Of a stretch of 64,000 nt of DNA, positions 24,663 through 49,336 are shown piece after piece. The DNA lies in the NCBI GenBank assembly GCA_001776545.1, contig MFBZ01000016.1, positions 1,088 to 65,087 on the forward strand. The letters run 5' to 3'. The notes under the pieces were generated by a model that saw nothing but the letters and a program-made list of their open reading frames with translations, did not search any database and was not told the DNA's origin. Source of the DNA: Candidatus Curtissbacteria bacterium RIFCSPLOWO2_12_FULL_41_16. Its GTDB lineage: Bacteria; Patescibacteriota; Microgenomatia; Curtissbacterales; GWA2-41-24. The position numbers and the translations under genes are program-made. The stretch's first letter is position 1. The number at the start of each line of letters is the position of its first letter.

Positions 24663-24944
24663 TTATTTTGAATTTTCGCCAGATGGCGGATCGTTAGTTG
24701 GGGCTGGAGATGGAGGGTGTTTCAGGTTTTTAATTTCTGTTTTTATTCCGGTAATCATTGCCCGAAGAACAGAGACTTCTTCATCGGCAAGTTCCCAAGC
24801 AGCATTTTCATTCCAGTTAGAAGTTGACTCCTGGTATGCTTGACCATATTTGGCTAAAGCTTCCTTGAGTTTAACTTCTTCAAGCTCTTTAAGCCGTTTC
24901 TTAAGATCTCTTAATTTTTGAGCTTTTGTTTGGATTTCTCTCAT
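24663..24944 (-). CDS. hypothetical coiled-coil protein inserted between rpsG and fusA
   Basis: 93-aa ORF. Lys/Glu-rich heptad-like N-terminal half, Pro-rich C-terminus. No SD sequence visible. Confidence 0.4.
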   Translation of the reverse strand: MREIQTKAQKLRDLKKRLKELEEVKLKEALAKYGQAYQESTSNWNENAAWELADEEVSVLRAMITGIKTEIKNLKHPPSPAPTNDPPSGENSK

Positions 24945-25139
24945 TCTAATTGTTATCTTATTATTATATACACAAACTCCTTCAATAATTAAAGAGATTT
25001 AAATTGTTGAAGAGTGTTTAGAAAACTAAGCGGGAATTATATCAGCAGATTGTGCTTCTTGGCAAGTTAAGGCGCTCCTTGTGATACATCAACCCTAATT
25101 GTTTTGCGAGCTTCCTGATATTTTCTCAGTGAACTTCGT

Positions 25140-25694: not shown

Positions 25695-26174
25695 TTATTC
25701 AATCGGTTGGGCTTGGGATGCAACGGCGGCGCCAACAGTGGTTGCAGCTTGAGCGCCTGTGACTGCCCCTGACTTTTTGGTGCCGTAAAGTGAACGGCCC
25801 TTTCGTCTTCCGGCCACGCCAGTCGTATCGTATTTCCCACGAATTATGTGGTATTTGACTCCAGGTAAGTCCTTAACACGGCCGCCACGAATTAAAACAA
25901 CGGAGTGTTCGGCAAGTTCATGGCCAATCCCCGGAACATAAGCTGTAACTTCTTGTTTATTGGACAGGCGAACACGGGCTACTTTTCTTAAAGCCGAATT
26001 AGGTTTTTTGGGCGTCATGGTTTTGACGATGACGCAGACACCTCTCTTTTGACCAGAAGGATAATAAACATAACGATTGACACGATTATTGAACGCACGA
26101 CGCAGCGCTGTTGCCCTAATTCTTTTGGGTTTTGACTTTCTGCCTTTTCTAATAAGTTGATTTACTGTTGGCAT
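25695..26174 (-). CDS. rpsL: 30S ribosomal protein S12 with ~12-aa internal insertion and Ala/Gly-rich C-terminal tail
   Basis: [16 protein letters not shown]...[18 protein letters not shown] core. An insertion ([15 protein letters not shown]) precedes QKRGVC. Confidence 0.95.
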
Positions 26175-26229: not shown

Positions 26230-26257
26230 ATTATAGCAAAATCGGGGTAGATTGCAA
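26230..26257 (-). promoter_or_regulatory. sigma70-like promoter for rpsL-rpsG(-fusA-tuf)
   Basis: On the minus strand, TTGCAA-16 nt-TATAAT lies about 55 nt upstream of the rpsL ATG. Confidence 0.5.
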
Positions 26258-26288: not shown

Positions 26289-26756
26289 TTAAAAAAGGCC
26301 GAGGACGATCAGCTCTTGGTGGGGTTCCTTATACCACTCGGCGATCACCTTTAATTCCAATTCAGCAAAGTCCGTCTGACCTGTATTTAAAAATCTATGC
26401 CTGACTGGAAGAGTGGGTTTAAGCCTATCTGAAAGATGGCCTACAGCTTCAGAAACAGACCTGGTTGTTTCATCGCAAGACTTGCTCCCTTTTTCTATCG
26501 GCGTAATTACTTCTGCGAGCAGCGTGCTCCCACACCTAGGATAGTTAGAAATCAGAAAAGCCACACCAGCTACTCTGGGAAGAGTCTGGAGTTTGTTTAA
26601 AAAATCCTTTACCGGTTCAGAAATGGGATCGGGGTTATCCCCAATCTCACAGAGCCGCTCGGCAACAATTCCGGCTAACTCTACTGAGAATTCCTCAGGT
26701 GACGCAAGGTACTCCTCCTCGCCGCCGTTTCCTCCTGATTGCCACTCTTTTGCCAT
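26289..26756 (-). CDS. hypothetical Cys-containing protein between rpoC and rpsL (GC-rich relative to flanks)
   Basis: 155-aa ORF. Four Cys residues (LCEIG / YPRCGS / SKSCDE). No recognised domain. Confidence 0.45.
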   Translation of the reverse strand: MAKEWQSGGNGGEEEYLASPEEFSVELAGIVAERLCEIGDNPDPISEPVKDFLNKLQTLPRVAGVAFLISNYPRCGSTLLAEVITPIEKGSKSCDETTRSVSEAVGHLSDRLKPTLPVRHRFLNTGQTDFAELELKVIAEWYKEPHQELIVLGLF

Positions 26757-26812
26757 GGTTGCAACTCAGCTTAATTCTAGCAAAAATTTTAAGTTCTGAG
26801 AATCTTGGAATC

Positions 26813-29800
26813 TCACTCTATTTTTGCCCGGTCAGGGCTTGTGGGTATTAATCTTCCAATTATGACGTTTTCTTTAAGACCCAGAAGACGATCGTCTTTA
26901 CCTTCAATGGCAGCATCGGTTAAAACACGGGTTGTTTCTTGGAAAGAAGCTGCAGAAAGAAAACTATCGGTATAAAGCGCCGCTCTGGTTATTCCCAGAA
27001 TAACAACTTGGGCAGTTGCTGGTTCACCGCCTTCGGCTAAAACTTTGGCATTTTCTTCTTGAAACTTGTTTTTACCGATTAGTTCACTTGGCAGAAAGAC
27101 AGTATCGCCAGATGACTCGATTCTAACCTTCTCGCTCATTTTTCGGACAATTACCTCGAAATGTTTGTCGTGGATGACTACCCCTTGGCTTTCGTAAACC
27201 TCTTGGGTACCGTCGATGATGTATTTTTGTGCTATTTCCAGGCCTGAAATTGCTAAGATCTCTTTAACGTCCAAGTATCCTGTCGAAAGTGCAGTGCCGG
27301 CGGTAATTAATTGTCCATCGGTTACGGCAAGTTCTGCTGTCGGCAGAGCCGTATATTCCCTTTCTTGTGACGGCTTAAGATTAGTACTTTTGATTCTTAT
27401 ACTATAACCGTCTTTCGTTTCCTCTATTTTAACCTTACCTGTAATTTCCGAAATCTGGGCGACGTATTTTGGAGTACGGACTTCAAAAAGTTCTTCGACT
27501 CTTGGCAAGCCTTGCGTGATATCGAGACCAACAATTCCTCCCGTATGAAAAGTTCTCATGGTCAACTGAGTCCCCGGCTCGCCTATCGACTGGGCAGCTA
27601 TGACTCCAACGGGGGTACCAAGCGCCACAAGGGTCCTGGCGACTAAGTCCATCCCGTAACATTTGGCGCACAAGCCATATTTTGCTTCACAGGTGATAGG
27701 TGAATAGACTTGGATTTTTTCGATATCGCTTTTTTCCAAATCTTGTGCAATGTTTTCGGTAAGTAGCGTGCCTTTTGGTGCTAAAACTTTTTTGCTTTTG
27801 GGAGAAATAACATCAGCTGCTGTAATCCTGCCCAGCAGCCTTGTGGAAAACGGCGCTCGCCGTTTGTCTTGTCGAGAAATAGTAATACCTTTTTGGGTAG
27901 CGCAATCTTCCAATCTGACAATGGCATCATGGGCAACATCAACGAGCCTTCTGGTAAGGTATCCACTTTCCGCAGTTTTGATGGCACGATCTGCCAGTCC
28001 TTTTCTGGCTCCTCGGGCACTGGTGAAATATTCAAAAACAGAAAGGCCCTCTCTAAAGTTTGATTTGATCGGCAAAGGGACAATACTGCCGGAGGGGTCT
28101 GTAACTAGACCTCGAATTGCAGCAAGCTGTTTGATTTGTTCGGCGGTCGCCCGAGAACCACCTGAATCAGAGATAATTTTGATAGAATTGTCCTTTGGTA
28201 AGTTCTTCCAAGTAAGATCGGCAAGCTCGTTTGTTGTTGAAAGCCAAACTTCTTGCGAAAGGCGTTTTTCTTCATCACGGGTGATTAAACCAAGCTTAAA
28301 GTTTTTTTCAATAGACTCGACTTCTTTTTCTGCTTTTTCGATGATTTTCGATTTTTCATCGACAATCATACAATCGAAAACGGAAACGGAAAGACCCGAG
28401 AAGGTGGCACCTTCAAAACCAAAACTTTTAAGTTTATCGATAAGTTCGATTACTTCATCTTCTTTCAGGGTGTTGATGCTGGTATCTATTAACCTTTTAA
28501 TTGTTGAGGCAGTAATTGGTTCGTTAATGAACTTAAGAGACTGGGGAAGTTGAATGTTGAAAAGAACTCTACCTGCCGAGGTTGTCAGGGTTTCTTTGCC
28601 AATTTTTACCTGGATCTGTTGTCTGGTTTTGATTTTAGCAGACTCTTTGGCAAGAATGACCTCGGTTTCGCTTTCAAAAACATTATCGTATGGAGGTGTT
28701 TTTGTGTCTAACAAGGTGAGATAATAAACACCGAGGGCCATTTCTTTGTTTGGCAAAGTGATCGGTGAGCCATCTGCTGGCCTGAGCAGATTTTTGCCAG
28801 CCATCATTAGCGCGATTGCTTCTTCTTGCGATTTTAAAGAAAGGGGAACGTGGACGGCCATTTGATCTCCGTCAAAATCCGCATTAAAGCCCGCACAGAT
28901 ACAAGGATGAATTCTAATGGCATCGCCCTCTATCAAAATTGGATAGAATGCCTGGATTCCCAGACGATGCAGAGTCGGAGCTCGGTTTAAAAGAATTGGA
29001 TGGTTTTTAGTAATTTCTTCTAAGATGTCCCAAATTTCTCCACTTCTTCGTTCTAAATAATGCTTGGCACTTTTAACGTTTGGTGCAAGCGCAAGGGTTA
29101 TTATTTCACGCAGCACAAATGGTTTAAACATCTCAAGTGCCATCTCTTTGGGAATGCCGGCTTGGTTGAGGTTTAACTCGGGTCCGACGACAATCACAGA
29201 CCTACCCGAATAATCGACTCTTTTGCCTAAAAGATTTTGTCTGAATCTTCCTTGTTTACCTCTGAGCATGTCGGAGAGCGAGCGTAGTGCAGGAGTAAGT
29301 CTGGTTGCTTTAGTTCGTTGTGAATCGATGAGGGCATCAACGGCTTCCTGCAGCATTCTTTTTTCATTCCTAAGGATAATTTCTGGCGCACCCAATTCAA
29401 TAAGTTTTTTGAGTCGGTTATTTCTGTTTATTACCCTTCGGTAAAGATCATTAAGATCGCTAGTTGCAAATCTACCGCCAGAAAGTTGAACCATTGGTCG
29501 CAGATCTGGTGGTAAAACCGGCAAAATTTTGGCGATCATATAGGTCGGTAAAATGCCAGCTTTGCGCATATTTTCAACAACTCTGAGTCTCTTGGTAGCT
29601 TTAAGATGTCTTTGGCCGGTAGTTCTGGTGATTTCTTCCTTAAGTGAAGCTGATAATTGGGAAAGGTCAATTTTTTCAATGATTGCCAGTAAGGCTTCGG
29701 CACCCATGCCGACTTTAAAGAAATCGCAAGAATTGTAATCGCCTAACTTAAGATATTCATCTTCTGAAAGAAGATCACGATGTTTAATGGATCTGGTCAT

Positions 29801-30499
29801 ATCAATGATATTTTTGTAAATTTCCTCGAGTCTTGAAATTTCCTGAGCGTTTTCATCACGAAGCTTGGCTGCTTTCTGGCGCATGGCAAGTTTGATTTCT
29901 TCAATCTTTAAATCTGTCTGTTCTTTAACAATATTTTTTTTAGATTTGATGGCTGAAATTTCCTTCTTAACTTGGTTTTCTTCCTCCTCGAGTTTCTTTT
30001 TAAGGATGGCGTCTTGTTCCTTACGCTTGACATCTTGCTCGGTTTCAAGCCTTTTGATGGTTTGACGCCTGGCCTCATCATCGACTTGGCAGACTATATA
30101 AGAAGCAAAATAAACAACCGACTCTAAGCTTCTTGGAGCAATATCTAAAATTAATCCCAATTTTGAGGGACTACCTTTAAAGAACCAGTTATGGGCGACG
30201 GGGGCTGCAAGATTAATATGCCCCATGCGTTCTCTTCTAACTCGAGACTGAGTAACTTCAACGCCACATTTGTCGCATATAATGCCACGATACCTAATTT
30301 TCTTATATTTGCCACAGTAACATTCCCAATCTTTGGTTGGACCAAAAATTCGTTCATCGAAAAGGCCGTCTTTTTCAGGTTTTAAAGTTCGGTAATTGAT
30401 GGTTTCTGGTTTTGTAACTTCGCCAAACGACCATGTTTTAATGTCGTCCGCTGAGGCAAGTGTTAATCTTAATGTTTCAAAATCAATTAGTTCATTCAT
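26813..30499 (-). CDS. rpoC: DNA-directed RNA polymerase subunit beta'
   Basis: 1228 aa. Zn-binding CxxC-x..-CxxC N-terminus, NADFDGD catalytic motif, trigger loop. Confidence 0.95.
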   Translation of the reverse strand: MNELIDFETLRLTLASADDIKTWSFGEVTKPETINYRTLKPEKDGLFDERIFGPTKDWECYCGKYKKIRYRGIICDKCGVEVTQSRVRRERMGHINLAAPVAHNWFFKGSPSKLGLILDIAPRSLESVVYFASYIVCQVDDEARRQTIKRLETEQDVKRKEQDAILKKKLEEEENQVKKEISAIKSKKNIVKEQTDLKIEEIKLAMRQKAAKLRDENAQEISRLEEIYKNIIDMTRSIKHRDLLSEDEYLKLGDYNSCDFFKVGMGAEALLAIIEKIDLSQLSASLKEEITRTTGQRHLKATKRLRVVENMRKAGILPTYMIAKILPVLPPDLRPMVQLSGGRFATSDLNDLYRRVINRNNRLKKLIELGAPEIILRNEKRMLQEAVDALIDSQRTKATRLTPALRSLSDMLRGKQGRFRQNLLGKRVDYSGRSVIVVGPELNLNQAGIPKEMALEMFKPFVLREIITLALAPNVKSAKHYLERRSGEIWDILEEITKNHPILLNRAPTLHRLGIQAFYPILIEGDAIRIHPCICAGFNADFDGDQMAVHVPLSLKSQEEAIALMMAGKNLLRPADGSPITLPNKEMALGVYYLTLLDTKTPPYDNVFESETEVILAKESAKIKTRQQIQVKIGKETLTTSAGRVLFNIQLPQSLKFINEPITASTIKRLIDTSINTLKEDEVIELIDKLKSFGFEGATFSGLSVSVFDCMIVDEKSKIIEKAEKEVESIEKNFKLGLITRDEEKRLSQEVWLSTTNELADLTWKNLPKDNSIKIISDSGGSRATAEQIKQLAAIRGLVTDPSGSIVPLPIKSNFREGLSVFEYFTSARGARKGLADRAIKTAESGYLTRRLVDVAHDAIVRLEDCATQKGITISRQDKRRAPFSTRLLGRITAADVISPKSKKVLAPKGTLLTENIAQDLEKSDIEKIQVYSPITCEAKYGLCAKCYGMDLVARTLVALGTPVGVIAAQSIGEPGTQLTMRTFHTGGIVGLDITQGLPRVEELFEVRTPKYVAQISEITGKVKIEETKDGYSIRIKSTNLKPSQEREYTALPTAELAVTDGQLITAGTALSTGYLDVKEILAISGLEIAQKYIIDGTQEVYESQGVVIHDKHFEVIVRKMSEKVRIESSGDTVFLPSELIGKNKFQEENAKVLAEGGEPATAQVVILGITRAALYTDSFLSAASFQETTRVLTDAAIEGKDDRLLGLKENVIIGRLIPTSPDRAKIE

Positions 30500-33400
30500 G
30501 AGATTGGTCCCTCCTCAAGTTCCATGGGGCTGTCTTTGGTGATTTCTGTCTCACTTGCAACTATTTCGCTCCCCACGATTTCGGCAAATTCTTGGACTTT
30601 CTTGGTTTCTTCCTCGGATTGGGGGATTTCTTCTGTCGCCTCTTTGGTTTTAGCGCCGATTGTTTGAACATTTAAAGATAAACTATTTAATTCTTTAACT
30701 AAGACTTTAAATGATTCCGGTATGAGAGCCTGGGGGATTTCGGTTCCTTTAATAATTGCTTCGAAGGCCTTGGCACGACCTACAATGTCGTCAGATTTGA
30801 TGGTTAGCATTTCCTGTAAGGTGTAAGCTGCGCCATAAGCTTCAAGAGCCCAGACCTCCATTTCGCCAAGACGTTGGCCGCCCATCTGAGCCTTGCCGCC
30901 AAGTGGCTGTTGAGTAATTAGGGAGTAGGGTCCGGTTGAGCGGGCATGAGTTTTATCTTCAACCATATGAATAAGCTTCATAATGTAGGCATTTCCAACA
31001 ACAATTGGTCTATCAAATGGTTGTCCGGTCCGGCCGTCGTAGAGAGTTACGCGACCATCTGTCGGTAGACCTGCTTTTTTAAGCTCAGAGATAATACGTT
31101 CTTCTGAGACATGTTCAAAAACAGGTAGGGCAACTTTATAGCCAAGTTTGGAAGCGGCCCAGCCAAGGTGGGTTTCTAAAAGTTGGCCCAAATTCATACG
31201 GGAAAGAACAGAAAGGGGGCTAATGATAATATCTATTGGCGTACCGTCTGGAAGATAAGGCATGTCGGGCCGCGGGACGATCTTTGAGATAACACCCTTG
31301 TTGCCATGACGACCAGCAAGTTTATCGCCAACAACTACCTTGCGGATTTGGGCAACTTTGACAAAAATCTTGAAAAGGACACCATGCTCCAATTCATCCC
31401 CTTTATCACGAGACAAAATCTTAATGTCGATAACTGTACCTTTTTCCCCGTGGGGCATTCTAAGCGAAGTGTCGCGAACTTCACGAGCCTTTTCTCCAAA
31501 AATTGTTCTCAACAATCTTTCTTCTGCGGTTAATTCGGTTTCGCCCTTGGGTGCAATTTTGCCGACTAAAATATCATTCGGGCCAACTTCGGCACCGATA
31601 ACGACAATGCCTTTTTCATCTAAATTCGCCAAATCTTCTTCTGAAACATTAGGAATGTCGCGGGTTGTTTCTTCTGGTCCCAGCTTGGTTTCAACAACCG
31701 ATGTTTCATACTCTTCGATGTGGATTGAGGTTAAAACATCTTCTCTGGAGAGTCTATCTGAAATGACAATGGCGTCTTCATAACCCAGACCATCAAAACT
31801 CATATAAGCGATTGTTAAATTTTGGCCGATTGCCAATTCGCCATCATCAGTTGCCGAACCGTCGACTAGAACATCTCCCTTTTTGATCTTTTGATTTATT
31901 ACCACCTTGGGTCTTTGTGAGTAACAGGTACTTTGCGGAGATCTGGCAAACTTTTGGGTTGGAATGGTTATTTGGCCGTCTTTCGTTTTTAAAATAAGCT
32001 TTTTGGCATCGACATAGACAACTTCACCATCTTGAGGACTTCTAACAACTCGACCCATATTGGTGGCAACAACTTCTTCCATGCCGGTACCAACTTGCGG
32101 TGCTTGGGGTTTGATTAATGGAACGGCCTGGCACTGCATATGAGTTCCCATTAAAGCACGATTAGCCTCATCATGGGCCAAAAATGGAATAAGCGAGGCT
32201 GAAGTTCCGACAACTTGTCTGGGGATAACATCGATAAAATTGACCGCATCGGTAAGTGCGGTTGTGAATTCGCCTTTATAACGGACAGGGATCCTGTCTG
32301 CTTCCAGATAGCCATTTTTGTCTATTTCGACTTGAGCATGAGTAATGTAATAATCTTCTTCGTCATCTGCCGCAAGATAAACGACTTCGTCGGTCACTTG
32401 GGCTCTACCGTTTTTTGCCTTGACAACTTTTTTATAAGGAGCTTCTAGAAATCCATATTCATTTACACGGCAGTAAAGTGCCATGTAGGTAACAAGGCCA
32501 ATATTTGGGCCTTCTGGTGAACGGACCGGGCAGATCCTGGAGTATTGAGAATGATTAATGTCCCGAATGGAAAAAGCAGCTCTTTCTCTGGCAATGCCGC
32601 CGGTACCCATGACAGTTAACCTTCTGAGGTTATCCAGTTCTGAAAGTGGATTGGTTTGATCTAAAATAGTAGAAAGTTGAGAGGACCGGAAAAATTCATT
32701 GATAGCCGAAATCAATGGTCTGGCGTTGATGAGCGCGGCTGGGGCCGGAACGGTATCTATCGGGGTAAGACTCATTCTTTCTTTGACCACACGTTCCAGT
32801 CTTAAAACTCCGATTCTAAAAGCATTCTGGGCTATGAGTTCACCAACACGTCTCACCCGGCGGTTCCCTAAGTGATCAATGTCATCGACTAGACCATTAC
32901 CTTTTAAAAGCTCGAATAGGTAGGCAATGGCTGCTATAAAATCCGGAGGCGAAAGTACAAGATCTTTTTCATCTTTTTCCCAAGCAAGCTTTTCTTTAAT
33001 TTTTGCGAGGCGTTTTTCAATTTTGTATCTACCAACCTTTCCGAGAGAATATCGTCGAGGATTGAAAAACATATTTTCGACTAAAGCTTTGGCATTGTCT
33101 AAGACCACATGATCACCCGGACGCATTCTGCGATAAATTTCCAAGAGTGCTTCTTCTTGAGTGGTGGTAGTGTCTTTGGCGAGGGTATTTGCGATGAGTT
33201 TTTGCGAAATTTCATCGGTAACATTTTCAAAAAGCCGGTGAATTTGGTCATCTGCAAATCCAACCGCTTTGAGAAATAAAGTAACAGGAAACTTGCGGCG
33301 TCTGTCAATTTTGACCGTGATGATATCGTTTTTGGTGATGGCAAATTCAAGCCATGAACCACGAAGGGGCCTAATTTCACAATTATAAAGATTTTTGCCT

Positions 33401-33837
33401 GTTGTAGGATCAATTTCAGCGGAATAGTAAACTCCAGGAGCACGTACTAATTGAGTAACTACTGCCCGTTCTATCCCATTAATTATAAAGGAGCCTTTTT
33501 CCAGCATTAATGGAAGATCGCATAGGAATACTTCCTGGGTGTTTTTGCCCCCAGTTTGCTTATTGACAACCTGGGCTTCTATCTTGAAGGGGACATCATA
33601 GGTGATGCCTTTCTCAATGGCTTCTTCCGGTGTATGTTTTGCCTTCCCTAAGTTGTAAGCGCCAAACGAAAGTGTAAAGTTTTTACCGGTGAAATCTTCT
33701 ATTGGAAAAACTTCGTCTATAACCTCACGGATTCCTTCCTTTAAAAAGGCATCAAAAGAATCTCTTTGAACTTTTACCAAGTCCAAGGATGGTAAGTTAA
33801 TGTTTGAAGGCTGTTCCCAGGAGATACGTTTTACCAC
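30496..33837 (-). CDS. rpoB: DNA-directed RNA polymerase subunit beta
   Basis: 1113 aa. Rif-region and beta-flap motifs. 4-nt overlap with rpoC. Confidence 0.95.
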   Translation of the reverse strand: MVKRISWEQPSNINLPSLDLVKVQRDSFDAFLKEGIREVIDEVFPIEDFTGKNFTLSFGAYNLGKAKHTPEEAIEKGITYDVPFKIEAQVVNKQTGGKNTQEVFLCDLPLMLEKGSFIINGIERAVVTQLVRAPGVYYSAEIDPTTGKNLYNCEIRPLRGSWLEFAITKNDIITVKIDRRRKFPVTLFLKAVGFADDQIHRLFENVTDEISQKLIANTLAKDTTTTQEEALLEIYRRMRPGDHVVLDNAKALVENMFFNPRRYSLGKVGRYKIEKRLAKIKEKLAWEKDEKDLVLSPPDFIAAIAYLFELLKGNGLVDDIDHLGNRRVRRVGELIAQNAFRIGVLRLERVVKERMSLTPIDTVPAPAALINARPLISAINEFFRSSQLSTILDQTNPLSELDNLRRLTVMGTGGIARERAAFSIRDINHSQYSRICPVRSPEGPNIGLVTYMALYCRVNEYGFLEAPYKKVVKAKNGRAQVTDEVVYLAADDEEDYYITHAQVEIDKNGYLEADRIPVRYKGEFTTALTDAVNFIDVIPRQVVGTSASLIPFLAHDEANRALMGTHMQCQAVPLIKPQAPQVGTGMEEVVATNMGRVVRSPQDGEVVYVDAKKLILKTKDGQITIPTQKFARSPQSTCYSQRPKVVINQKIKKGDVLVDGSATDDGELAIGQNLTIAYMSFDGLGYEDAIVISDRLSREDVLTSIHIEEYETSVVETKLGPEETTRDIPNVSEEDLANLDEKGIVVIGAEVGPNDILVGKIAPKGETELTAEERLLRTIFGEKAREVRDTSLRMPHGEKGTVIDIKILSRDKGDELEHGVLFKIFVKVAQIRKVVVGDKLAGRHGNKGVISKIVPRPDMPYLPDGTPIDIIISPLSVLSRMNLGQLLETHLGWAASKLGYKVALPVFEHVSEERIISELKKAGLPTDGRVTLYDGRTGQPFDRPIVVGNAYIMKLIHMVEDKTHARSTGPYSLITQQPLGGKAQMGGQRLGEMEVWALEAYGAAYTLQEMLTIKSDDIVGRAKAFEAIIKGTEIPQALIPESFKVLVKELNSLSLNVQTIGAKTKEATEEIPQSEEETKKVQEFAEIVGSEIVASETEITKDSPMELEEGPIS

Positions 33838-39631: not shown

Positions 39632-39675
39632 GAAGTGTAGCCCAATTATATCAGCTAAAAATTTTATTCGGAAGA

Positions 39676-40311: not shown

Positions 40312-42081
40312 TTACTCCTCAATTGTAGCATAGATTCTCCTGAGGTCAGAACCGGCGGATTCTTCTTTGGTGATTTTAAAATGGCCAAGAACGCCGGTAG
40401 ATTTGGCATGCGGTCCACCACAAAATTCTTTAGAATAGGCTTCTTCGATTTTAGTGGATGGGCCAATAAAATAAATATTGACCAAATCTCCGTATTTTTC
40501 TTCAAAAAGTCCGACGGCGCCAATTTTATTTGCTTCTTCTTTAGGCATAACCCTTTGATTAACCATAAGATTATCTCTGATCTTTTGGTTAACGATTGCT
40601 TCGGTCTGTTTTATTTGCTCTGGTGTCGTTTTGGCATGATGCGAAAAGTCGAATCTCAATCTTTCTTCGGTAATGTGAGAGCCGGTTTGGTGGACATGCT
40701 TGCCTAAAACATCACGGAGTGCTTGATGTAAAAGATGGGTAGCAGTATGAAGTTTGGCTGCTTTTTCCGTTTGGACTGTCAATCCCCCTTTGGTTTTTTC
40801 ACCGGCTTTCCTAGAGAGTTCTTGATGGGCTTTAAGTTCTTTTTCAAACCCCGCGAGGTCGACTTGTTTACTTTTCTCAGTCGCTAACTCGATTGTTAGT
40901 TCTATGGGAAAACCATAGTTTTGATAGAGATCGAATGCATCATGACCAGAAATATCTCCGGTAATTTTTTCAAATTGTCTGATACCTGATGAGAGTGCTT
41001 TTTTAAATTTATCTTCTTCTTTTTTAAGGGTTTCAATGATCAAGTTTTGAGACTCATATAGATTAGGATAGAGATCACCATAGGTTTTGATGACAATTTT
41101 GGCTAAATCTTCCAAGAAGTCTTCCTCGATTTTTAACAAAGAAGCATGTCGAATCGCACGTCTGACAAGTCGACGAAGGACATATCCTCTCTCGACATTT
41201 GATGGGAAAACACCGTCTGATATCAAAAAAACTGACGAGCGAATATGGTCGGCCACGATTCTTGTGGATTTAACATCGAGGTAACTGGCGAGATCCTCGA
41301 TTCTTTTGGCAAGTGGTAGAAAAACATCGGTTTCATAAATTGAGAGAGCATTTCCCAAAACTGCCAGCATGCGTTCCAAGCCCATACCGGTGTCAACATT
41401 TTTTTGTTTAAGAGGTTTGAAGCTACCGTCATTTTGCTTGTCATATTGCATAAAGACGTCGTTCCAAATTTCAATGAAGCGATTTGAATCACTCGTTTTT
41501 TCAACCTGCCCTGAATCGTTCGGACTGACGTCATAAAACATCTCAGTGTCAGGACCACAGGGACCGGTTGGGCCTACCGGACCCCACCAATTTTCTTGTT
41601 TGCCATATTTGAAAATGTGATTCTCTGGTAAGCCAAGTTTCCTCCAGATATCGTAGGATTCTTGGTCAAAAGGGGCATCGGCGTCTCCAGCAAAAACCGA
41701 AACATAGATTCTTTTGGCATCGAGTTTTAAAACATCAATTAAAAATTGATAAGACCAAGAAATCGCCTCTTCTCTCCAGTACCCGCCCAAAGACCAGTTG
41801 CCAAGCATTTCGAAAAATGTGTTGTGGACGCTGTCCCCTACCTGATCGATATCATCGGTGCGCAGACACTTTTGGACGTTAACGAGCCGTTTGCCTTCTG
41901 GGTGGGATTCACCCAGCAGATAGGGCACCAGTGGGTGCATGCCGGCAGTGGTAAATAAAACTCTTTTAGTACCGGTAAGTTCGACGGACTCTGACGGAAC
42001 AAGAGATGCAGAAGGAATAATCTTGTGTCCCCTATCTTCAAAAAATTTCAAAAACTTTTGGCGAAGGTCTGAAGAGTTCAT
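40312..42081 (-). CDS. alaS: alanine--tRNA ligase, short form (catalytic + tRNA-binding + editing domains; no C-terminal oligomerisation domain)
   Basis: Class II motifs (FTTAGMHP, GNWSLGGYW), editing-domain HxxxH...H (HTATHLLHQALRDVLGKHVHQTGSH), C-terminal CGGPH. 589 aa. Confidence 0.9.
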   Translation of the reverse strand: MNSSDLRQKFLKFFEDRGHKIIPSASLVPSESVELTGTKRVLFTTAGMHPLVPYLLGESHPEGKRLVNVQKCLRTDDIDQVGDSVHNTFFEMLGNWSLGGYWREEAISWSYQFLIDVLKLDAKRIYVSVFAGDADAPFDQESYDIWRKLGLPENHIFKYGKQENWWGPVGPTGPCGPDTEMFYDVSPNDSGQVEKTSDSNRFIEIWNDVFMQYDKQNDGSFKPLKQKNVDTGMGLERMLAVLGNALSIYETDVFLPLAKRIEDLASYLDVKSTRIVADHIRSSVFLISDGVFPSNVERGYVLRRLVRRAIRHASLLKIEEDFLEDLAKIVIKTYGDLYPNLYESQNLIIETLKKEEDKFKKALSSGIRQFEKITGDISGHDAFDLYQNYGFPIELTIELATEKSKQVDLAGFEKELKAHQELSRKAGEKTKGGLTVQTEKAAKLHTATHLLHQALRDVLGKHVHQTGSHITEERLRFDFSHHAKTTPEQIKQTEAIVNQKIRDNLMVNQRVMPKEEANKIGAVGLFEEKYGDLVNIYFIGPSTKIEEAYSKEFCGGPHAKSTGVLGHFKITKEESAGSDLRRIYATIEE

Positions 42082-42165
42082 TGAACTTAATTATATCTCA
42101 GTTTGTCGAGGAAAATTAAGATTCAGTACGACTGCAGCGAAAAGTTTAACCAGGTCTGATTTGGT

Positions 42166-42528
42166 CTAACTTTCCTGGCGCGTATGACTGCGCCGGAAGA
42201 AGAAGCGGCGGCCTTTTTTTTGGATTTCTTCGATGTGCTCAGGTATTTGCGCGGTTGCTTCCTGAACATTTTCCTTGATATTTTGAACGGCATGGGCGCT
42301 TTCGGCTAATTTTTCTTTAATTCCTTCTTTATGCTTGTCGATTTTTTCTTCTGCTGATTCTTTTGTTTCTTCTAATGCTTCAGCCATTTTCCCGATAAGC
42401 TTTTGGCTTTCTTTTAAAAGCTCCTCTTTGAGTTTTTGGCCGCTTTTGGTGCCAAAAAGATAAACAAGAGCAGCGCCTACGATAACGCCAAAAAGAAATG
42501 AGGAATTGCCGTTTTTTTGATCGTTCAT
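42166..42528 (-). CDS. YtxH-like membrane-anchored coiled-coil protein
   Basis: N-terminal GVIVGAALVYLFGTKSGQKLKEEL (YtxH signature) then coiled coil. Confidence 0.6.
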   Translation of the reverse strand: MNDQKNGNSSFLFGVIVGAALVYLFGTKSGQKLKEELLKESQKLIGKMAEALEETKESAEEKIDKHKEGIKEKLAESAHAVQNIKENVQEATAQIPEHIEEIQKKGRRFFFRRSHTRQES

Positions 42529-42788
42529 TTACCTGATTCTTTCTTGCCCTTTTTTAATAAATGGGCAATACCGACACCGGCAGCAAGCGAAGCAAAAAGG
42601 TTACCGGCAGTTTCAATCGGTTTTTTAACTTGACCCACTAAATCGTCGGTGTCATCAAAAAGCCTATTCATTCTAAAAAGTGTCTTTCGAAGGTCGCGAA
42701 GAACAAAGAAAACTTGGAAACCCAAAGCTATAAGGAAAATTGACAGTACAATAATTACTGCGAGAAGAATTATTTGTGTTATATCCAT
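42525..42788 (-). CDS. DUF948-like small membrane protein
   Basis: 87 aa, an N-terminal TM helix then a helical region. 4-nt overlap with the YtxH-like gene, the usual pairing. Confidence 0.5.
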   Translation of the reverse strand: MDITQIILLAVIIVLSIFLIALGFQVFFVLRDLRKTLFRMNRLFDDTDDLVGQVKKPIETAGNLFASLAAGVGIAHLLKKGKKESGK

Positions 42789-42940
42789 AGGGCAGTTGTT
42801 AAGTCAAAGTATGTAGTCAAGGTCGAAAGTCAAACTTTGACTGTGAACTAGTCTTGTATACTTCACTGTCCTTGTTTTTGTCAATGGGGACTAGCGGCAC
42901 CTATCCCCACATGACAGGTAAAGTGATATAATTCCCAATA

Positions 42941-43129
42941 ATGAACCAGATTAGAAAATACTTCGCAGGTCTTCTATTTGCACTTTCTATACTATATATG
43001 TTTTTCCCAAGTTTAGGCAAAAGAGGTCTTTTTGAAAATGCGACAAACGTTGAAATTGGAATCTCTGCTTTAATTCTTGTTGCTACAGCTATAATCTTAT
43101 ATCTTATGCCAGACGAAAAGAAAAACTAA
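42941..43129 (+). CDS. hypothetical small membrane protein
   Basis: 62 aa with two hydrophobic helices, followed by a clear terminator. Confidence 0.35.
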   Translation: MNQIRKYFAGLLFALSILYMFFPSLGKRGLFENATNVEIGISALILVATAIILYLMPDEKKN

Positions 43130-43179
43130 ATTGACTTCAAAATAAAATAGCCTTAGAATAGTTTTAAGAGGGAAATTAC

Positions 43180-43206
43180 CCCACGCAAATGCGTGGGTTT
43201 TTGCGT
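43180..43206 (+). terminator. rho-independent terminator
   Basis: CCCACGCAAATGCGTGGG (7-bp stem) followed by TTTTT, about 50 nt after the 42941..43129 ORF. Confidence 0.55.
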
Positions 43207-43289
43207 TTAAGGGGTCAGTTTTGCCATTTGCCTATAAATAAAAATGCCTGAAACAATATAAATATGGGATAAAAAATAAAAAACTCCTT

Positions 43290-43502
43290 TTGGCGAAGGA
43301 GTCTAAAAGATATATGAGTTGGATAAATATACCTCTTGATAAGAGTATAAATGCTATGAGTGATTTTGTCAAAGTAGCCTCAGAAATGAATAAACGGAGG
43401 CAAAATAGGTCGTTGCGTCTAATTGCATTGCTCCTTGCTCTAATTGCAGGGTTTCTGCTACTTATGTTTTGGGGATTCGGCTTTTTTATCTTAAGTAGTT
43501 GA
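43290..43502 (+). CDS. hypothetical small protein with C-terminal TM helix (start may be the second Met at 43314)
   Basis: 70-aa ORF. AAGGAG lies 12 nt before the second ATG. The antisense 91-aa ORF 43232..43507 is the less likely reading. Confidence 0.3.
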   Translation: MAKESKRYMSWINIPLDKSINAMSDFVKVASEMNKRRQNRSLRLIALLLALIAGFLLLMFWGFGFFILSS

Positions 43503-43713
43503 GTCAATTTGTTAGAATATACTTGTGCCGACTAAAAAGAAATCAGAATTTGTAACCCTCACCTCAATCCTAATCGAAAAAAGGAATCCTGACAGGAAAG
43601 ATTTAGCGGGTAGCAAGAGTAGTTTTAAAAAATTAGTTGTAGAAGCTACGAAACAAGAGCCGTTTGATAAGTCAAAGTAACACTCAAAAAATTAGTTTGC
43701 TATAATACCGCCG

Positions 43714-43974
43714 ATGGCAGAAAAGAAAGAGATACCACAAAAAACAATAATAAATGCCAGCACAATTATTGGAAGTGCTTATTCCCAGCTTGCAAGCGTG
43801 ACAGTCACTAATATAGATATGACAATAGAATTTATTTTTATCAATCCTCGTGATCCGTCCTCTGGACAAGTAGTTTCAAGAGTTACTTTGCCTAAAAAGG
43901 TTGGTTTAAAACTTGCGGAGGTTATTGTAAATACAAACAAAATTAATGAAAAAAGGAGAAGTGAGAAAAAATGA
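43714..43974 (+). CDS. hypothetical protein, DUF3467-like pattern
   Basis: 86 aa. The YSQLASVTVTNIDMTIEFIF...VVSRVTLPKKVGLKLAEVI pattern resembles DUF3467. TATAAT-like box 10 nt upstream. Confidence 0.4.
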   Translation: MAEKKEIPQKTIINASTIIGSAYSQLASVTVTNIDMTIEFIFINPRDPSSGQVVSRVTLPKKVGLKLAEVIVNTNKINEKRRSEKK

Positions 43975-44246
43975 TTAATGCCTTACCCTGGGAATCCAGA
44001 GATTACGACATAATAATAGATGAAGATTTACAACCAAAGATAGGGGAAATTAAGTGGGTAACAAACATTCCGAGAGAAAATCAACTGGTAGTTAGCTTGG
44101 TGGATAATTTTGAATACCCACTGCTAGCAGAATTGCGTTCGCAATTTGAGGCAACAGGCTCATACACAAGTGAGCAATTAGATGAAATAATTGGAGTGTA
44201 TGGGCGGTTACCAAAATACAGAGCGCAAAGTCATAGTACTACCTGA
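43971..44246 (+). CDS. hypothetical protein (possible antitoxin partner)
   Basis: 91 aa. ATGA overlap with the upstream gene. Its 3' end overlaps the RelE/ParE-like ORF by about 55 nt in another frame. Confidence 0.35.
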   Translation: MINALPWESRDYDIIIDEDLQPKIGEIKWVTNIPRENQLVVSLVDNFEYPLLAELRSQFEATGSYTSEQLDEIIGVYGRLPKYRAQSHSTT

Positions 44247-44457
44247 GGCTGAAGACGAAGCTCGCAGACTTAGACTTAAACCACAGCTAGAGAGACTCGT
44301 AGAAAGACTAAGAAAAAGATCACTAATCAAGGGTTTCAAGAAGATAGAACCTAAAACTGCAAATACGTGGGAAGCTCGGTTGAAATTGAGGTGGCGTGCC
44401 TATATCATTTTTGATGATGATATACCAACTATCTTTAGAGTGGGCGATCATTTATAA
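44191..44457 (+). CDS. RelE/ParE-superfamily type II toxin
   Basis: C-terminal half (KKIEPKTANTWEARLKLRWRAYIIFDDDIPTIFRVGDH) matches the RelE/YoeB/ParE consensus W.aR....yR..Y..dd....I.rigHR. The N-terminal AEDEARRL matches the helix-1 pattern. Confidence 0.6.
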   Translation: MECMGGYQNTERKVIVLPEAEDEARRLRLKPQLERLVERLRKRSLIKGFKKIEPKTANTWEARLKLRWRAYIIFDDDIPTIFRVGDHL

Positions 44458-45402
44458 GAAATTCTAAGTTTTCAAAACCCTAACTCCGTTAATTTGCCCG
44501 AGTAATACTTCAAACATTGGCTCGTTTCTGTGATTAAAGCGAAATCCATACTCATCAACATAAGCCTGTAAATACTTTTTGCTAACAACCCGATAGACTC
44601 CTGTTACCCCTCTCTTGAAATGACTCCAAAAGTTCTCGATTCCTTGCGTATGCACTTCGCCTCGTACTGATTCCAACCTGTGATTTACTGATTCGTGGTA
44701 GTAGCCAAACTTCGGCAAGTGATAGTAACCTGCAAATTCGTCTGTAAAAACCCTTGCTGTCGGGTCAACATTCTCTTTTATCTGTTGTAGTAATGTCCAC
44801 TTACCAGTATTAGGAATGTGTTTTAAATATACTTTCCCGCCTCTTTTTAACATACCCATTACTATTTCCTTATCGGTTGAACCAATACCATATTTATTCT
44901 TGCGGTTGCTTGTCTTACCACCTACAAATGTTTCGTCAACTTCTACAATGCCGTCCAGCAAGCCATCTTTTGGCTCTGCCATTAACATTCTGATCTGTTT
45001 AAACATTCTCCACGCCGTCTTATATGAAACTGCAAGCTCACGCTGTAATTGCTTTGCTGATACGCCTGATCGGGTATTAGACATTACAAACATAGCGTAG
45101 AACCAATACTGCAAGGGTGTTGTGGTTTTTTCAAAGATAGTTCCTGCAAGCGGTGCTATTTGATAACCGCAGGAGCATTGATAAACCATTCTGCCTTTTA
45201 TTTTGTAGAAGTTGGATATTTGCTCGAAGTATTTACATTTCTTGTTCTGGCATTTAGCACCTTTTGGATACTTAATCTTAAATATCTCAGCAAGACACGA
45301 TTCATCATCTTTATACTTTCGCAAGAATGTTGCGAGGCTAAATTGATTTTTCATAGCCTCAGTATAGCACACTAATTACCTGTTGTCAAGGGATAAGTGC
45401 CG
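44440..45402 (-). mobile_element. IS1595-family insertion sequence (ends approximate)
   Basis: A single transposase gene filling about 0.9 kb between the toxin cassette and the rodZ-like gene. I could not define terminal inverted repeats by eye. Confidence 0.5.
44464..45354 (-). CDS. IS1595-family transposase (N-terminal Zn ribbon + DDE domain)
   Basis: MKNQFSLATFLRKYKDDESCLAEIFKIKYP...C..C.. ribbon and an ISXO2-like DDE core. Start trimmed to MKNQFSL. Confidence 0.85.
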   Translation of the reverse strand: MKNQFSLATFLRKYKDDESCLAEIFKIKYPKGAKCQNKKCKYFEQISNFYKIKGRMVYQCSCGYQIAPLAGTIFEKTTTPLQYWFYAMFVMSNTRSGVSAKQLQRELAVSYKTAWRMFKQIRMLMAEPKDGLLDGIVEVDETFVGGKTSNRKNKYGIGSTDKEIVMGMLKRGGKVYLKHIPNTGKWTLLQQIKENVDPTARVFTDEFAGYYHLPKFGYYHESVNHRLESVRGEVHTQGIENFWSHFKRGVTGVYRVVSKKYLQAYVDEYGFRFNHRNEPMFEVLLGQINGVRVLKT

Positions 45403-49306: not shown

Positions 49307-49336
49307 AGTCCAATTGTAACAGATGGAAAGCTGATT

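What the first reader, a model, noticed from the sequence alone, without database searches (positions are those of the whole stretch)
26289..26756. GC-rich Cys-containing unknown gene wedged between rpoC and the rpsL promoter
What the sequence shows: a 155-aa ORF with four Cys (possible metal site), higher GC than its flanks, co-oriented with and 56 nt downstream of rpoC. The canonical rpsL promoter TTGCAA-16-TATAAT lies just after it.

Inference: it is probably co-transcribed with rpoBC, placing an uncharacterised protein in the RNAP operon.
Basis: partly seen in the sequence, partly recalled or inferred. Interest (0 to 1): 0.5.

Follow-up and report, generated by a model that had tools for sequence, protein, structure and literature searches.

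The report
Orphan accessory gene after rpoC
The ORF is a real gene from a very rare, unnamed protein family, but it was inserted next to the RNA polymerase genes in only one Curtissbacteria species, so it is an ordinary horizontally acquired accessory gene and not a hidden polymerase subunit.

Summary
The 155-aa ORF exists at 26289-26756 on the minus strand. It lies 56 nt after rpoC and is followed by the rpsL promoter TTGCAA-16-TATAAT. It has three Cys, not four. It is a real gene: an exhaustive HMMER search found 27 distant full-length relatives at 25-35% identity. A profile built without the ORF scores it at E=1e-27, and AlphaFold with that alignment gives pLDDT 86.

The organism is a Candidatus Curtissbacteria (CPR) species. 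Four other Curtissbacteria with RpoC 80-83% identical have rpoC followed directly by rpsL, with no trace of the ORF. Relatives elsewhere sit in unrelated contexts: after rpsT and before pilN in Blackburnbacteria, in a GC-rich island, and after membrane-protein genes. They are usually GC-richer than their flanks.

The ORF has its own extended -10 promoter-like site.

Verdict: a horizontally acquired solitary accessory gene of unknown, probably non-enzymatic binding function. Its placement in the RNAP operon is incidental. Low interest.

The parts
26289..26756 (-). ORF155 coding sequence (155 aa, ATG to TAA). It is a divergent, slightly short member of an undescribed ~155-200 aa protein family. 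It is deposited as a hypothetical protein (OGD92544.1 and three others).
   Evidence: ORF; 27 distant homologs, leave-one-out profile E=1.3e-27; AF2 pLDDT 85.7, pTM 0.80; GenBank names, 35 contigs.
26774..26802 (-). Promoter-like site TTCTCA-17-TAGAAT with an extended -10 (TGCTAGAAT), inside the 56-nt rpoC-ORF155 spacer. The -10 ends 17 nt before the ORF155 ATG.
   Evidence: The motif TGNTANAAT occurs 23 times in the window against 12.7±3.6 expected, with 0 of 100 shuffles reaching 23. Function as a promoter is inferred, not shown.
26291..26317 (-). Weak terminator-like hairpin (AAG-A-GCUGA / UCGGC-CUU) followed by a U run that overlaps the last two codons and the stop of ORF155.
   Evidence: The surrounding 61-nt segment folds at -10.6 kcal/mol with z=-0.69, so it is not statistically distinctive. 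Termination here is inferred.
26230..26257 (-). rpsL (str operon) promoter-like site TTGCAA-16-TATAAT with TG. An equivalent extended -10 (TGATATAAT or TGTTACAAT) sits upstream of rpsL in all four related Curtissbacteria.
26813..30499 (-). rpoC (beta-prime, 1228 aa), the upstream neighbour. It is 100% identical to RpoC of Candidatus Curtissbacteria bacterium RIFCSPHIGHO2_01.
25695..26174 (-). rpsL (S12, 159 aa), the downstream neighbour and first gene of the str operon.
   Evidence: PF00164.

Best explanation
ORF155 is a genuine protein-coding gene. It belongs to a very rare, undescribed family of solitary, soluble ~155-200 aa alpha/beta proteins.

One Candidatus Curtissbacteria species acquired it horizontally as a single-gene insertion of about 0.5 kb in the spacer between rpoC and the rpsL promoter.

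Inferred: it is transcribed from its own extended -10 promoter in the 56-nt spacer, and probably also by read-through from rpoBC. Transcription mostly stops at a weak hairpin plus U run that overlaps its stop codon, before the independent str-operon promoter.

Shown: it is not a conserved component of the RNAP operon, and its Cys residues do not form a metal site.

Inferred with low confidence: the product is a non-enzymatic binding protein. Its fold is two N-terminal helices packed on a beta-beta-alpha-beta-alpha-beta sandwich, of the generic type seen in minimal nucleotidyltransferase antitoxins, the MafI2 immunity protein and CzrB-type cytoplasmic domains. The nucleotidyltransferase catalytic residues are missing. 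The likely binding site is the conserved loop cluster P73-x-C75-P-T-T78, E82, N124, W141 and P145. It may act as a neutraliser or immunity-like factor, or as a small-ligand binder.
For: Real gene and family:
- phmmer against 1.84 billion representatives gives 27 hits at E≤1e-3. They are 124-198 aa and align over nearly the full length (alignment).
- The leave-one-out profile gives E=1.3e-27 and 112.8 bits over residues 11-155.
- The AF2 model is poor alone (pLDDT 42) but confident with the family alignment (pLDDT 85.7, pTM 0.80).

Species-specific insertion:
- All contigs from the same species carry the identical gene: 35 contigs and 4 GenBank MAG proteins. The DNA is identical in L005-L007.
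- The nearest other Curtissbacteria (RpoC 83, 80, 80 and 80% identical) have rpoC followed directly by rpsL, separated by 93-263 nt (about 178 nt in L008 once the rpsL start is corrected).
- tblastn, blastn and hmmsearch find no remnant of the ORF in those loci.

Foreign composition:
- GC3 z=2.4 in the window.
- Family genes are GC-richer than their flanks in three other genomes: L002 0.506 against 0.28-0.32, L013 0.477 against 0.30-0.36, L014 0.549 against 0.42-0.46.

Unrelated contexts elsewhere:
- After rpsT and before pilN/pilO in Blackburnbacteria.
- In a 1.75-kb GC-rich island.
- After two small membrane-protein genes.
- No neighbour is shared between contexts.

Expression signals.

Non-enzymatic nature:
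- Conserved columns are mostly hydrophobic or structural. The consensus loop is PxCPTT where nucleotidyltransferases have G[SG]. Strand beta2 carries a single E (15 of 27) where they have [DE]x[DE].
- There are no Pfam, NCBIfam, PADLOC or PHROG hits.
Against: - No expression data exist for this gene. The promoter and terminator are consensus matches only, and the hairpin is weak (z=-0.69).
- The direction of change (gain here rather than loss in four relatives) rests on parsimony and composition. The closest relative (P0030, RpoC 84%) could not be inspected.
- Two of the two taxonomically assigned CPR contexts place the gene directly downstream of an information-processing gene (rpoC here, rpsT in Blackburnbacteria). 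This could hint at a link to transcription or translation.
- No toxin or partner gene is adjacent in any context.
- The window copy is the shortest full-length member of the family and deviates from the consensus at several positions. It could be decaying.
Confidence: 0.7

Rival explanations
1. RNAP- or translation-associated accessory factor. The protein is co-expressed with beta/beta-prime and binds RNAP or the ribosome. The comparison would be the small subunits delta, epsilon and omega, or the L7Ae-like YbxF encoded between rpoC and rpsL in Bacillus.
For: - It is co-oriented with rpoC, 56 nt downstream, with no terminator-like site in between.
- In Blackburnbacteria the family member lies 46 nt downstream of rpsT and is co-oriented with it.
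- It is a small, acidic (pI 4.8), soluble protein.
Against: - It is absent from 4 of 4 nearest Curtissbacteria, which keep the same rpoBC-rpsL-rpsG-fusA order.
- The other family contexts are unrelated to transcription or translation.
- It has a GC3 anomaly and its own promoter-like site.
- The family has only 27 clusters among 1.84 billion representatives.
- It shows no similarity to RpoZ, RpoE, RpoY or L7Ae models.
Confidence: 0.08
2. Orphan antitoxin or immunity protein. It would be a catalytically dead MNT-like or MafI-like neutraliser, kept to protect against a HEPN-type or polymorphic RNase toxin encoded elsewhere or delivered by competitors.
For: - The gene is solitary, horizontally mobile, compositionally foreign and patchily distributed. 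This is typical of orphan immunity genes (established knowledge of polymorphic toxin systems).
Against: - MafI2's fold is generic (PMC9970974).
- No toxin or HEPN gene is adjacent in any of five contexts, and no neighbour is shared.
- There is no PADLOC or Pfam hit.
- The pI across the family ranges from 4.6 to 9.9, so there is no consistent charge complementarity.
Confidence: 0.15
3. Functionless passenger. It would be a recently acquired gene that is neutral or decaying, tolerated because the rpoC-rpsL spacer accepts insertions.
For: - The window copy is the shortest full-length member. It lacks the N-terminal 'ER' segment and the C-terminal x-R-[DE] tail, and it departs from the consensus at P76G, I81A and G119R.
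- A variant (P0002) has a completely different first 22 residues, consistent with a frameshift and restoration, so the N-terminus is unconstrained.
- The rpoC 3' end and spacer carry other insertions and duplications in relatives.
Against: - The reading frame is intact and identical in 35 contigs from several samples and 4 MAGs.
- Residues 23-155 are 100% conserved in the variant.
- All core secondary-structure elements are kept and modelled confidently.
Confidence: 0.12
4. Not a gene. It would be a chance ORF in a long rpoC 3' UTR or rpsL leader, or a structured RNA element.
For: There is no strong Shine-Dalgarno sequence (-2.5 kcal/mol). The word-index search found only near-identical copies.
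Against: - Distant full-length homologs exist, and the leave-one-out profile gives E=1.3e-27.
- The co-evolution-driven AF2 model is confident.
- A weak SD is typical of this genome: the median is -0.9 kcal/mol, and only 21% of genes reach -5 or below.
- There is no Rfam match and no excess RNA folding energy (z=-0.33).
Confidence: 0.01

Closest known systems
Minimal nucleotidyltransferase (MNT) antitoxins of HEPN-MNT modules (for example HI0073 1no5, AF0614 1ylq, SO_3166 5yep, 8xeh)
   Different: There is no G[SG] motif; the consensus is PxCPTT. There is no [DE]x[DE]; a single E occurs in 15 of 27 members. There is no PF01909 or other profile match. No HEPN partner is adjacent in any context. 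Two extra N-terminal helices are present.
MafI2 immunity protein of the Neisseria MafB2 RNase toxin (PDB 8hhj)
YbxF (RplGB), the L7Ae-family protein encoded between rpoC and rpsL in Bacillus subtilis (own knowledge, not tested against sequence here)
   Same: It has the same genomic slot: a small gene between rpoC and rpsL, co-oriented with both.
   Different: ORF155 has no L7Ae (Pfam) signal. It is not conserved even within its genus. Its predicted fold is different (one search lists no L7Ae or K-turn binder).
Cytoplasmic domains of cation-diffusion-facilitator transporters (CzrB, MamM, MamB, CzcD C-terminal domains)
   Different: Those domains are metal-binding modules attached to membrane transporters. 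ORF155 is free-standing, has no conserved His, Asp or Cys metal ligands and has no transmembrane segment.

Membership tests
Undescribed 'ORF155 family' (27 clusters at 50% identity) | Significant full-length match to a family profile built without the query | tested here: met
Undescribed 'ORF155 family' (27 clusters at 50% identity) | Conserved core motifs: F52, V62-x3-AFL, PxCPTTL, (I)EV, A104, F(V/I)N(T), W141-x3-P, terminal F155 | tested here: met
   The window protein keeps F52, V62, A66-F67-L68, P73, C75, T78, L79, E82, V83, A104, F122, N124, W141, P145 and F155. It deviates at P76G, T77S, I81A and G119R.
MNT / Pol-beta-type minimal nucleotidyltransferase (Pfam NTP_transf_2) | G[SG] motif in the turn after strand beta1 | tested here: not met
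   The family consensus there is P-x-C-P-T-T. The window has P-R-C-G-S, but that Gly and Ser are each found only in the window copy among the 27 non-redundant members.
MNT / Pol-beta-type minimal nucleotidyltransferase (Pfam NTP_transf_2) | [DE]-x-[DE] metal-binding pair on strand beta2, plus a third acidic residue | tested here: not met
   Strand beta2 reads L-x-I-E-V. E82 is present in 15 of 27 members and there is no second acidic position. N124 (N in 18, D in 5 of 27) is the only candidate for a third site.
MNT / Pol-beta-type minimal nucleotidyltransferase (Pfam NTP_transf_2) | Profile match to the family model | tested here: not met
   None of the 28 family members matches PF01909 or any related model at E≤0.1. 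The PDB sequence profile search gives only noise.
MNT / Pol-beta-type minimal nucleotidyltransferase (Pfam NTP_transf_2) | Fold similarity to solved MNT structures | tested here: inconclusive
HEPN-MNT or toxin-immunity two-gene module | Adjacent cognate toxin gene (HEPN, MafB-like or other) | tested here: not met
   The neighbours are rpoC and rpsL in the window, rpsT and pilN in L014/L015, membrane proteins in L002, and a transporter and a Zn-ribbon-like ORF in L013. No neighbour is shared. There is no PADLOC hit.
RNAP accessory subunit or conserved rpoBC-operon member | Conserved presence at the locus in related genomes | tested here: not met
   It is absent from L008, L009, L010/L011 and L012 (RpoC 80-83% identical). 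No remnant was found.
RNAP accessory subunit or conserved rpoBC-operon member | Physical association with RNAP | not testable with these tools
   This needs co-purification or a complex prediction. Neither was available.
Cys-based metal (Zn or Fe-S) binding protein | Three or four conserved Cys/His ligands | tested here: not met
   There are three Cys. Only C75 is semi-conserved (19 of 27). Members have 0-6 Cys and two have none. No conserved His exists.
Phage or plasmid-borne gene | Homologs on viral contigs, phage genomes or plasmids | tested here: not met
   Three IMG/VR scans found none. tblastn against phages found no match. The only plasmid hits (Thermus, E=0.7) fail the family profile. 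BFVD gave nothing at E≤1e-3.

The most novel reading that the evidence does not exclude
The family may be a new kind of minimal, integrase-less mobile or 'hitch-hiker' gene. In this reading it repeatedly lands as a GC-rich single-gene island immediately downstream of highly expressed housekeeping genes in CPR bacteria (rpoC here, rpsT in Blackburnbacteria). Alternatively, those placements may reflect a real, sporadically distributed factor that acts on the transcription or translation machinery.
Probability: 0.07. Interest if true: 0.6.

Novelty: new member of a known kind. Interest (0 to 1): 0.2.

Why it matters
A conserved unknown protein inside the rpoBC operon of a CPR bacterium could have been a new RNA polymerase subunit in a poorly understood branch of life. 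The evidence shows it is not. The gene is a one-species insertion from a very rare, unnamed family.

The remaining value is modest. The result defines a new small protein family with a confident predicted fold and no functional annotation. It also documents that the rpoC-rpsL spacer of Curtissbacteria tolerates insertions.

The conserved GreA-N-like mini-protein between rpsG and fusA, seen in passing, is the better lead for an RNAP-binding factor in this gene cluster.

Tried and rejected
- **Armatimonadetes genome hit** (L001, 31% identity over residues 30-110). Rejected: it lies in a non-coding frame antisense to a 453-aa ORF of a GC-rich genome and does not match the family profile.
- **Thermus thermophilus plasmid tblastn hits** (E=0.7). 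Rejected: they run across the end of one annotated gene and antisense to another, and the profile does not match.
- **Word-index homology searches** found only near-identical copies plus three family members. The exhaustive HMMER search was needed.
- **JGI metagenome scans** with a 3-sequence alignment and with P0028 found nothing.
- **Viral, phage and defence-system origin.** There were no hits.
- **Structured RNA or riboswitch instead of a gene.** There is no Rfam match at E≤1, no tRNA, and the folding z-score is -0.33.
- **Transposon-like ends.** The 13-nt imperfect direct repeat TTTTGCTA(G/T)AATT flanking the ORF coincides with two extended -10 promoter elements. It is no better than eight other chance repeats in the same 800 nt. 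It cannot be called a target-site duplication.
- **Insertion boundaries.** Alignment of the spacers with relatives was too diverged to define them.
- **Shine-Dalgarno strength** is uninformative, because most genes here lack a strong SD.
- **Literature search** for a described gene at this position gave nothing relevant.

Full report
**Observation**

The window's minus strand carries rpoB (30496-33837), rpoC (26813-30499), a 155-aa ATG ORF (26289-26756), rpsL (25695-26174), rpsG, a 93-aa ORF, fusA and tuf.
- The ORF starts 56 nt after the rpoC stop.
- A promoter-like TTGCAA-16-TATAAT with an upstream TG lies at 26257-26230, between the ORF and rpsL.
- The ORF has GC 0.476 and GC3 0.455. For 38 other genes the means are 0.425±0.029 and 0.375±0.034, giving GC3 z=2.4. 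The ORF is therefore GC-richer than its surroundings, but only moderately.
- The protein has three Cys (36, 75, 94), not four.

**Is it a gene?**

The word-indexed search of 5.8 billion proteins found only two near-identical sequences. One of them (P0002) differs only in the first 22 residues, in a way that looks like a frameshift followed by restoration.

The exhaustive HMMER scan of 1.84 billion cluster representatives found 27 proteins at E≤1e-3, with a best distant hit of 2.4e-13. They are 124-198 aa, 25-36% identical, and align over almost the whole length.

A profile built without the window protein and P0002 scores the ORF at E=1.3e-27, even with the search space set to 1.84e9.

AlphaFold2 gives a poor model from the single sequence (pLDDT 42). 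With the 28-sequence alignment the model is confident (pLDDT 85.7, pTM 0.80). Its elements are H20-35, H43-57, E64-70, E78-85, H92-112, E118-124, H130-143 and E147-154.

There is no Rfam match and no excess RNA structure. The ORF is a real protein-coding gene and a member of a real family.

**What the family is not**

No member matches any Pfam family consistently. The window protein has no Pfam match and no credible NCBIfam match. PADLOC and PHROGs give nothing. The family profile finds nothing credible among PDB sequences.

Structural comparison:
- Foldseek finds nothing at E≤1e-3 in the PDB or BFVD.
- The fold class is therefore a generic two-layer alpha/beta sandwich.

The MNT-defining motifs are absent. 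The turn after beta1 reads PxCPTT instead of G[SG]. Strand beta2 carries one Glu (15 of 27 members) instead of [DE]x[DE]. Conserved columns are mostly hydrophobic.

Cys content ranges from 0 to 6 per member, and only C75 is semi-conserved (19 of 27). No metal site is defined. The pI ranges from 4.6 to 9.9.

**Organism and conservation of the locus**

RpoC is 100% identical to that of Candidatus Curtissbacteria bacterium RIFCSPHIGHO2_01, a member of the CPR Microgenomates. The ORF is deposited as a hypothetical protein (OGD92544.1 and three others) and is seen on 35 contigs. Three same-species loci are identical in DNA across the region.

The nearest other Curtissbacteria that could be inspected keep the order rpoB-rpoC-rpsL-rpsG-small ORF-fusA but have no gene between rpoC and rpsL. 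These are L008 (RpoC 83% identical) and L009, L010/L011 and L012 (all 80%).
- Their spacers are 93-263 nt, or about 178 nt in L008 once the rpsL start is corrected.
- hmmsearch, tblastn and blastn find no remnant of the ORF in these loci.
- Each relative has an extended -10 element (TGATATAAT or TGTTACAAT) upstream of rpsL. The str operon therefore has its own conserved promoter.

The parsimonious reading is a gain in one species.

**Contexts of relatives**

| Locus | Family member and source | Neighbours | GC of gene vs flanks |
|---|---|---|---|
| L014/L015 | P0020, two Candidatus Blackburnbacteria MAGs | 46 nt after rpsT, before pilN/pilO | 0.549 vs 0.42-0.46 |
| L013 | P0007, Logan contig | 1.75-kb GC-rich island with a 188-aa Cys-rich ORF and a 70-aa ORF | 0.477 vs 0.30-0.36 |
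| L002 | P0024, Logan contig | after two small membrane-protein genes | 0.506 vs 0.28-0.32 |
| L003, L004 | P0027 and P0011, Logan contigs | short contigs, uninformative | not compared |

One further member is annotated in a Chloroflexota MAG. No neighbouring protein is shared between contexts. There are no hits in phage genomes, viral contigs, or plasmids that pass the profile.

The picture is a rare, solitary, patchily distributed and compositionally foreign gene. In other words, it is a horizontally acquired accessory gene.

**Expression (inferred)**

- The 56-nt rpoC-ORF spacer holds TTCTCA-17-TAGAAT with an extended -10 TG.
- The extended -10 motif TGNTANAAT is enriched in the window: 23 occurrences against 12.7±3.6 expected. 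It often sits close to start codons.
- No terminator-like site separates rpoC from the ORF, so read-through is also possible.
- A weak hairpin followed by a U run overlaps the ORF's stop codon, just before the rpsL promoter.
- The weak Shine-Dalgarno sequence is typical of this genome.

**Mechanism**

Shown: it is a real gene, it belongs to a real family, it is a species-specific insertion, it has no metal site, and it has no catalytic nucleotidyltransferase motifs.

Inferred: it has its own promoter plus read-through transcription. It is most likely a soluble, non-enzymatic binding protein. Its conserved loops (P73-x-C75-P-T-T78, E82, N124, W141/P145) probably form the interaction site. It may be an orphan neutraliser or immunity-like factor, but that sub-claim has low confidence (about 0.15-0.25).

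The RNAP-factor reading keeps a small probability. Two CPR placements lie downstream of information-processing genes.

**Verdict**

The feature is an ordinary horizontally acquired ORFan-family gene. Novelty is limited to a new, very rare protein family with a confident predicted fold.

Noticed in passing
window 24663-24944 (-); also L008 6829-7143, L009 9317-9586, L010 9010-9273, L012 9120-9431: A 93-aa ORF between rpsG and fusA is conserved at the same position in all five Curtissbacteria. Identity is 65-71%, with 44 invariant columns that include W-x-ENAAWELADEE-x-SVLRAM. It gives weak GreA/GreB N-terminal coiled-coil hits (Pfam E=0.0045, TIGR01462 E=3.5e-4) and is named a GreA/GreB N-terminal domain protein in UniRef. 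A GreA-coiled-coil-only mini-protein embedded in the str operon is a better candidate for an RNAP-binding factor than ORF155.
   Followed up: partly
L008 5520-5600 and L010 7685-7795 (rpoC-rpsL spacers of relatives): Directly after the rpoC stop, both relatives carry a palindromic segment (CAATTATA...TAATTG). It is strongly structured in L010 (-37.9 kcal/mol, z=-4.3). A diverged duplicate of the last ~45 nt of rpoC, including a stop codon, follows it. The rpoC 3' end and spacer seem to be a hotspot for insertion or recombination in this genus.
   Followed up: partly
L013 2250-4000: This is a 1.75-kb GC-rich island (GC 0.45-0.52) in a genome of GC 0.30-0.36. It holds the family member P0007, a divergently oriented 188-aa ORF with a CxxC...CxxC zinc-ribbon-like C-terminal half, and a 70-aa ORF. 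None has a Pfam match.
   Followed up: partly
window, e.g. 39645-39653, 40322-40330, 49313-49321, 25036-25044 (-): Extended -10 motifs (TGNTANAAT) are enriched (23 against 12.7 expected) and often lie only ~7-20 nt upstream of start codons. Only about 21% of genes have a Shine-Dalgarno duplex of -5 kcal/mol or stronger. This suggests that short-leader or leaderless mRNAs are common in this genome.
   Followed up: partly
window 25695-26174 (-): Ribosomal protein S12 is 159 aa, with a ~35-residue Ala/Gly/Thr/Val-rich C-terminal tail beyond the usual length. Related Curtissbacteria have 162-168 aa versions.
   Followed up: no
window 42081-44464: This stretch has no minus-strand ORF of 150 aa or more, in an otherwise tightly packed minus-strand gene array. 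It has three plus-strand extended -10-like motifs (42924, 43510, 43698). It may hold plus-strand or small genes.
   Followed up: no
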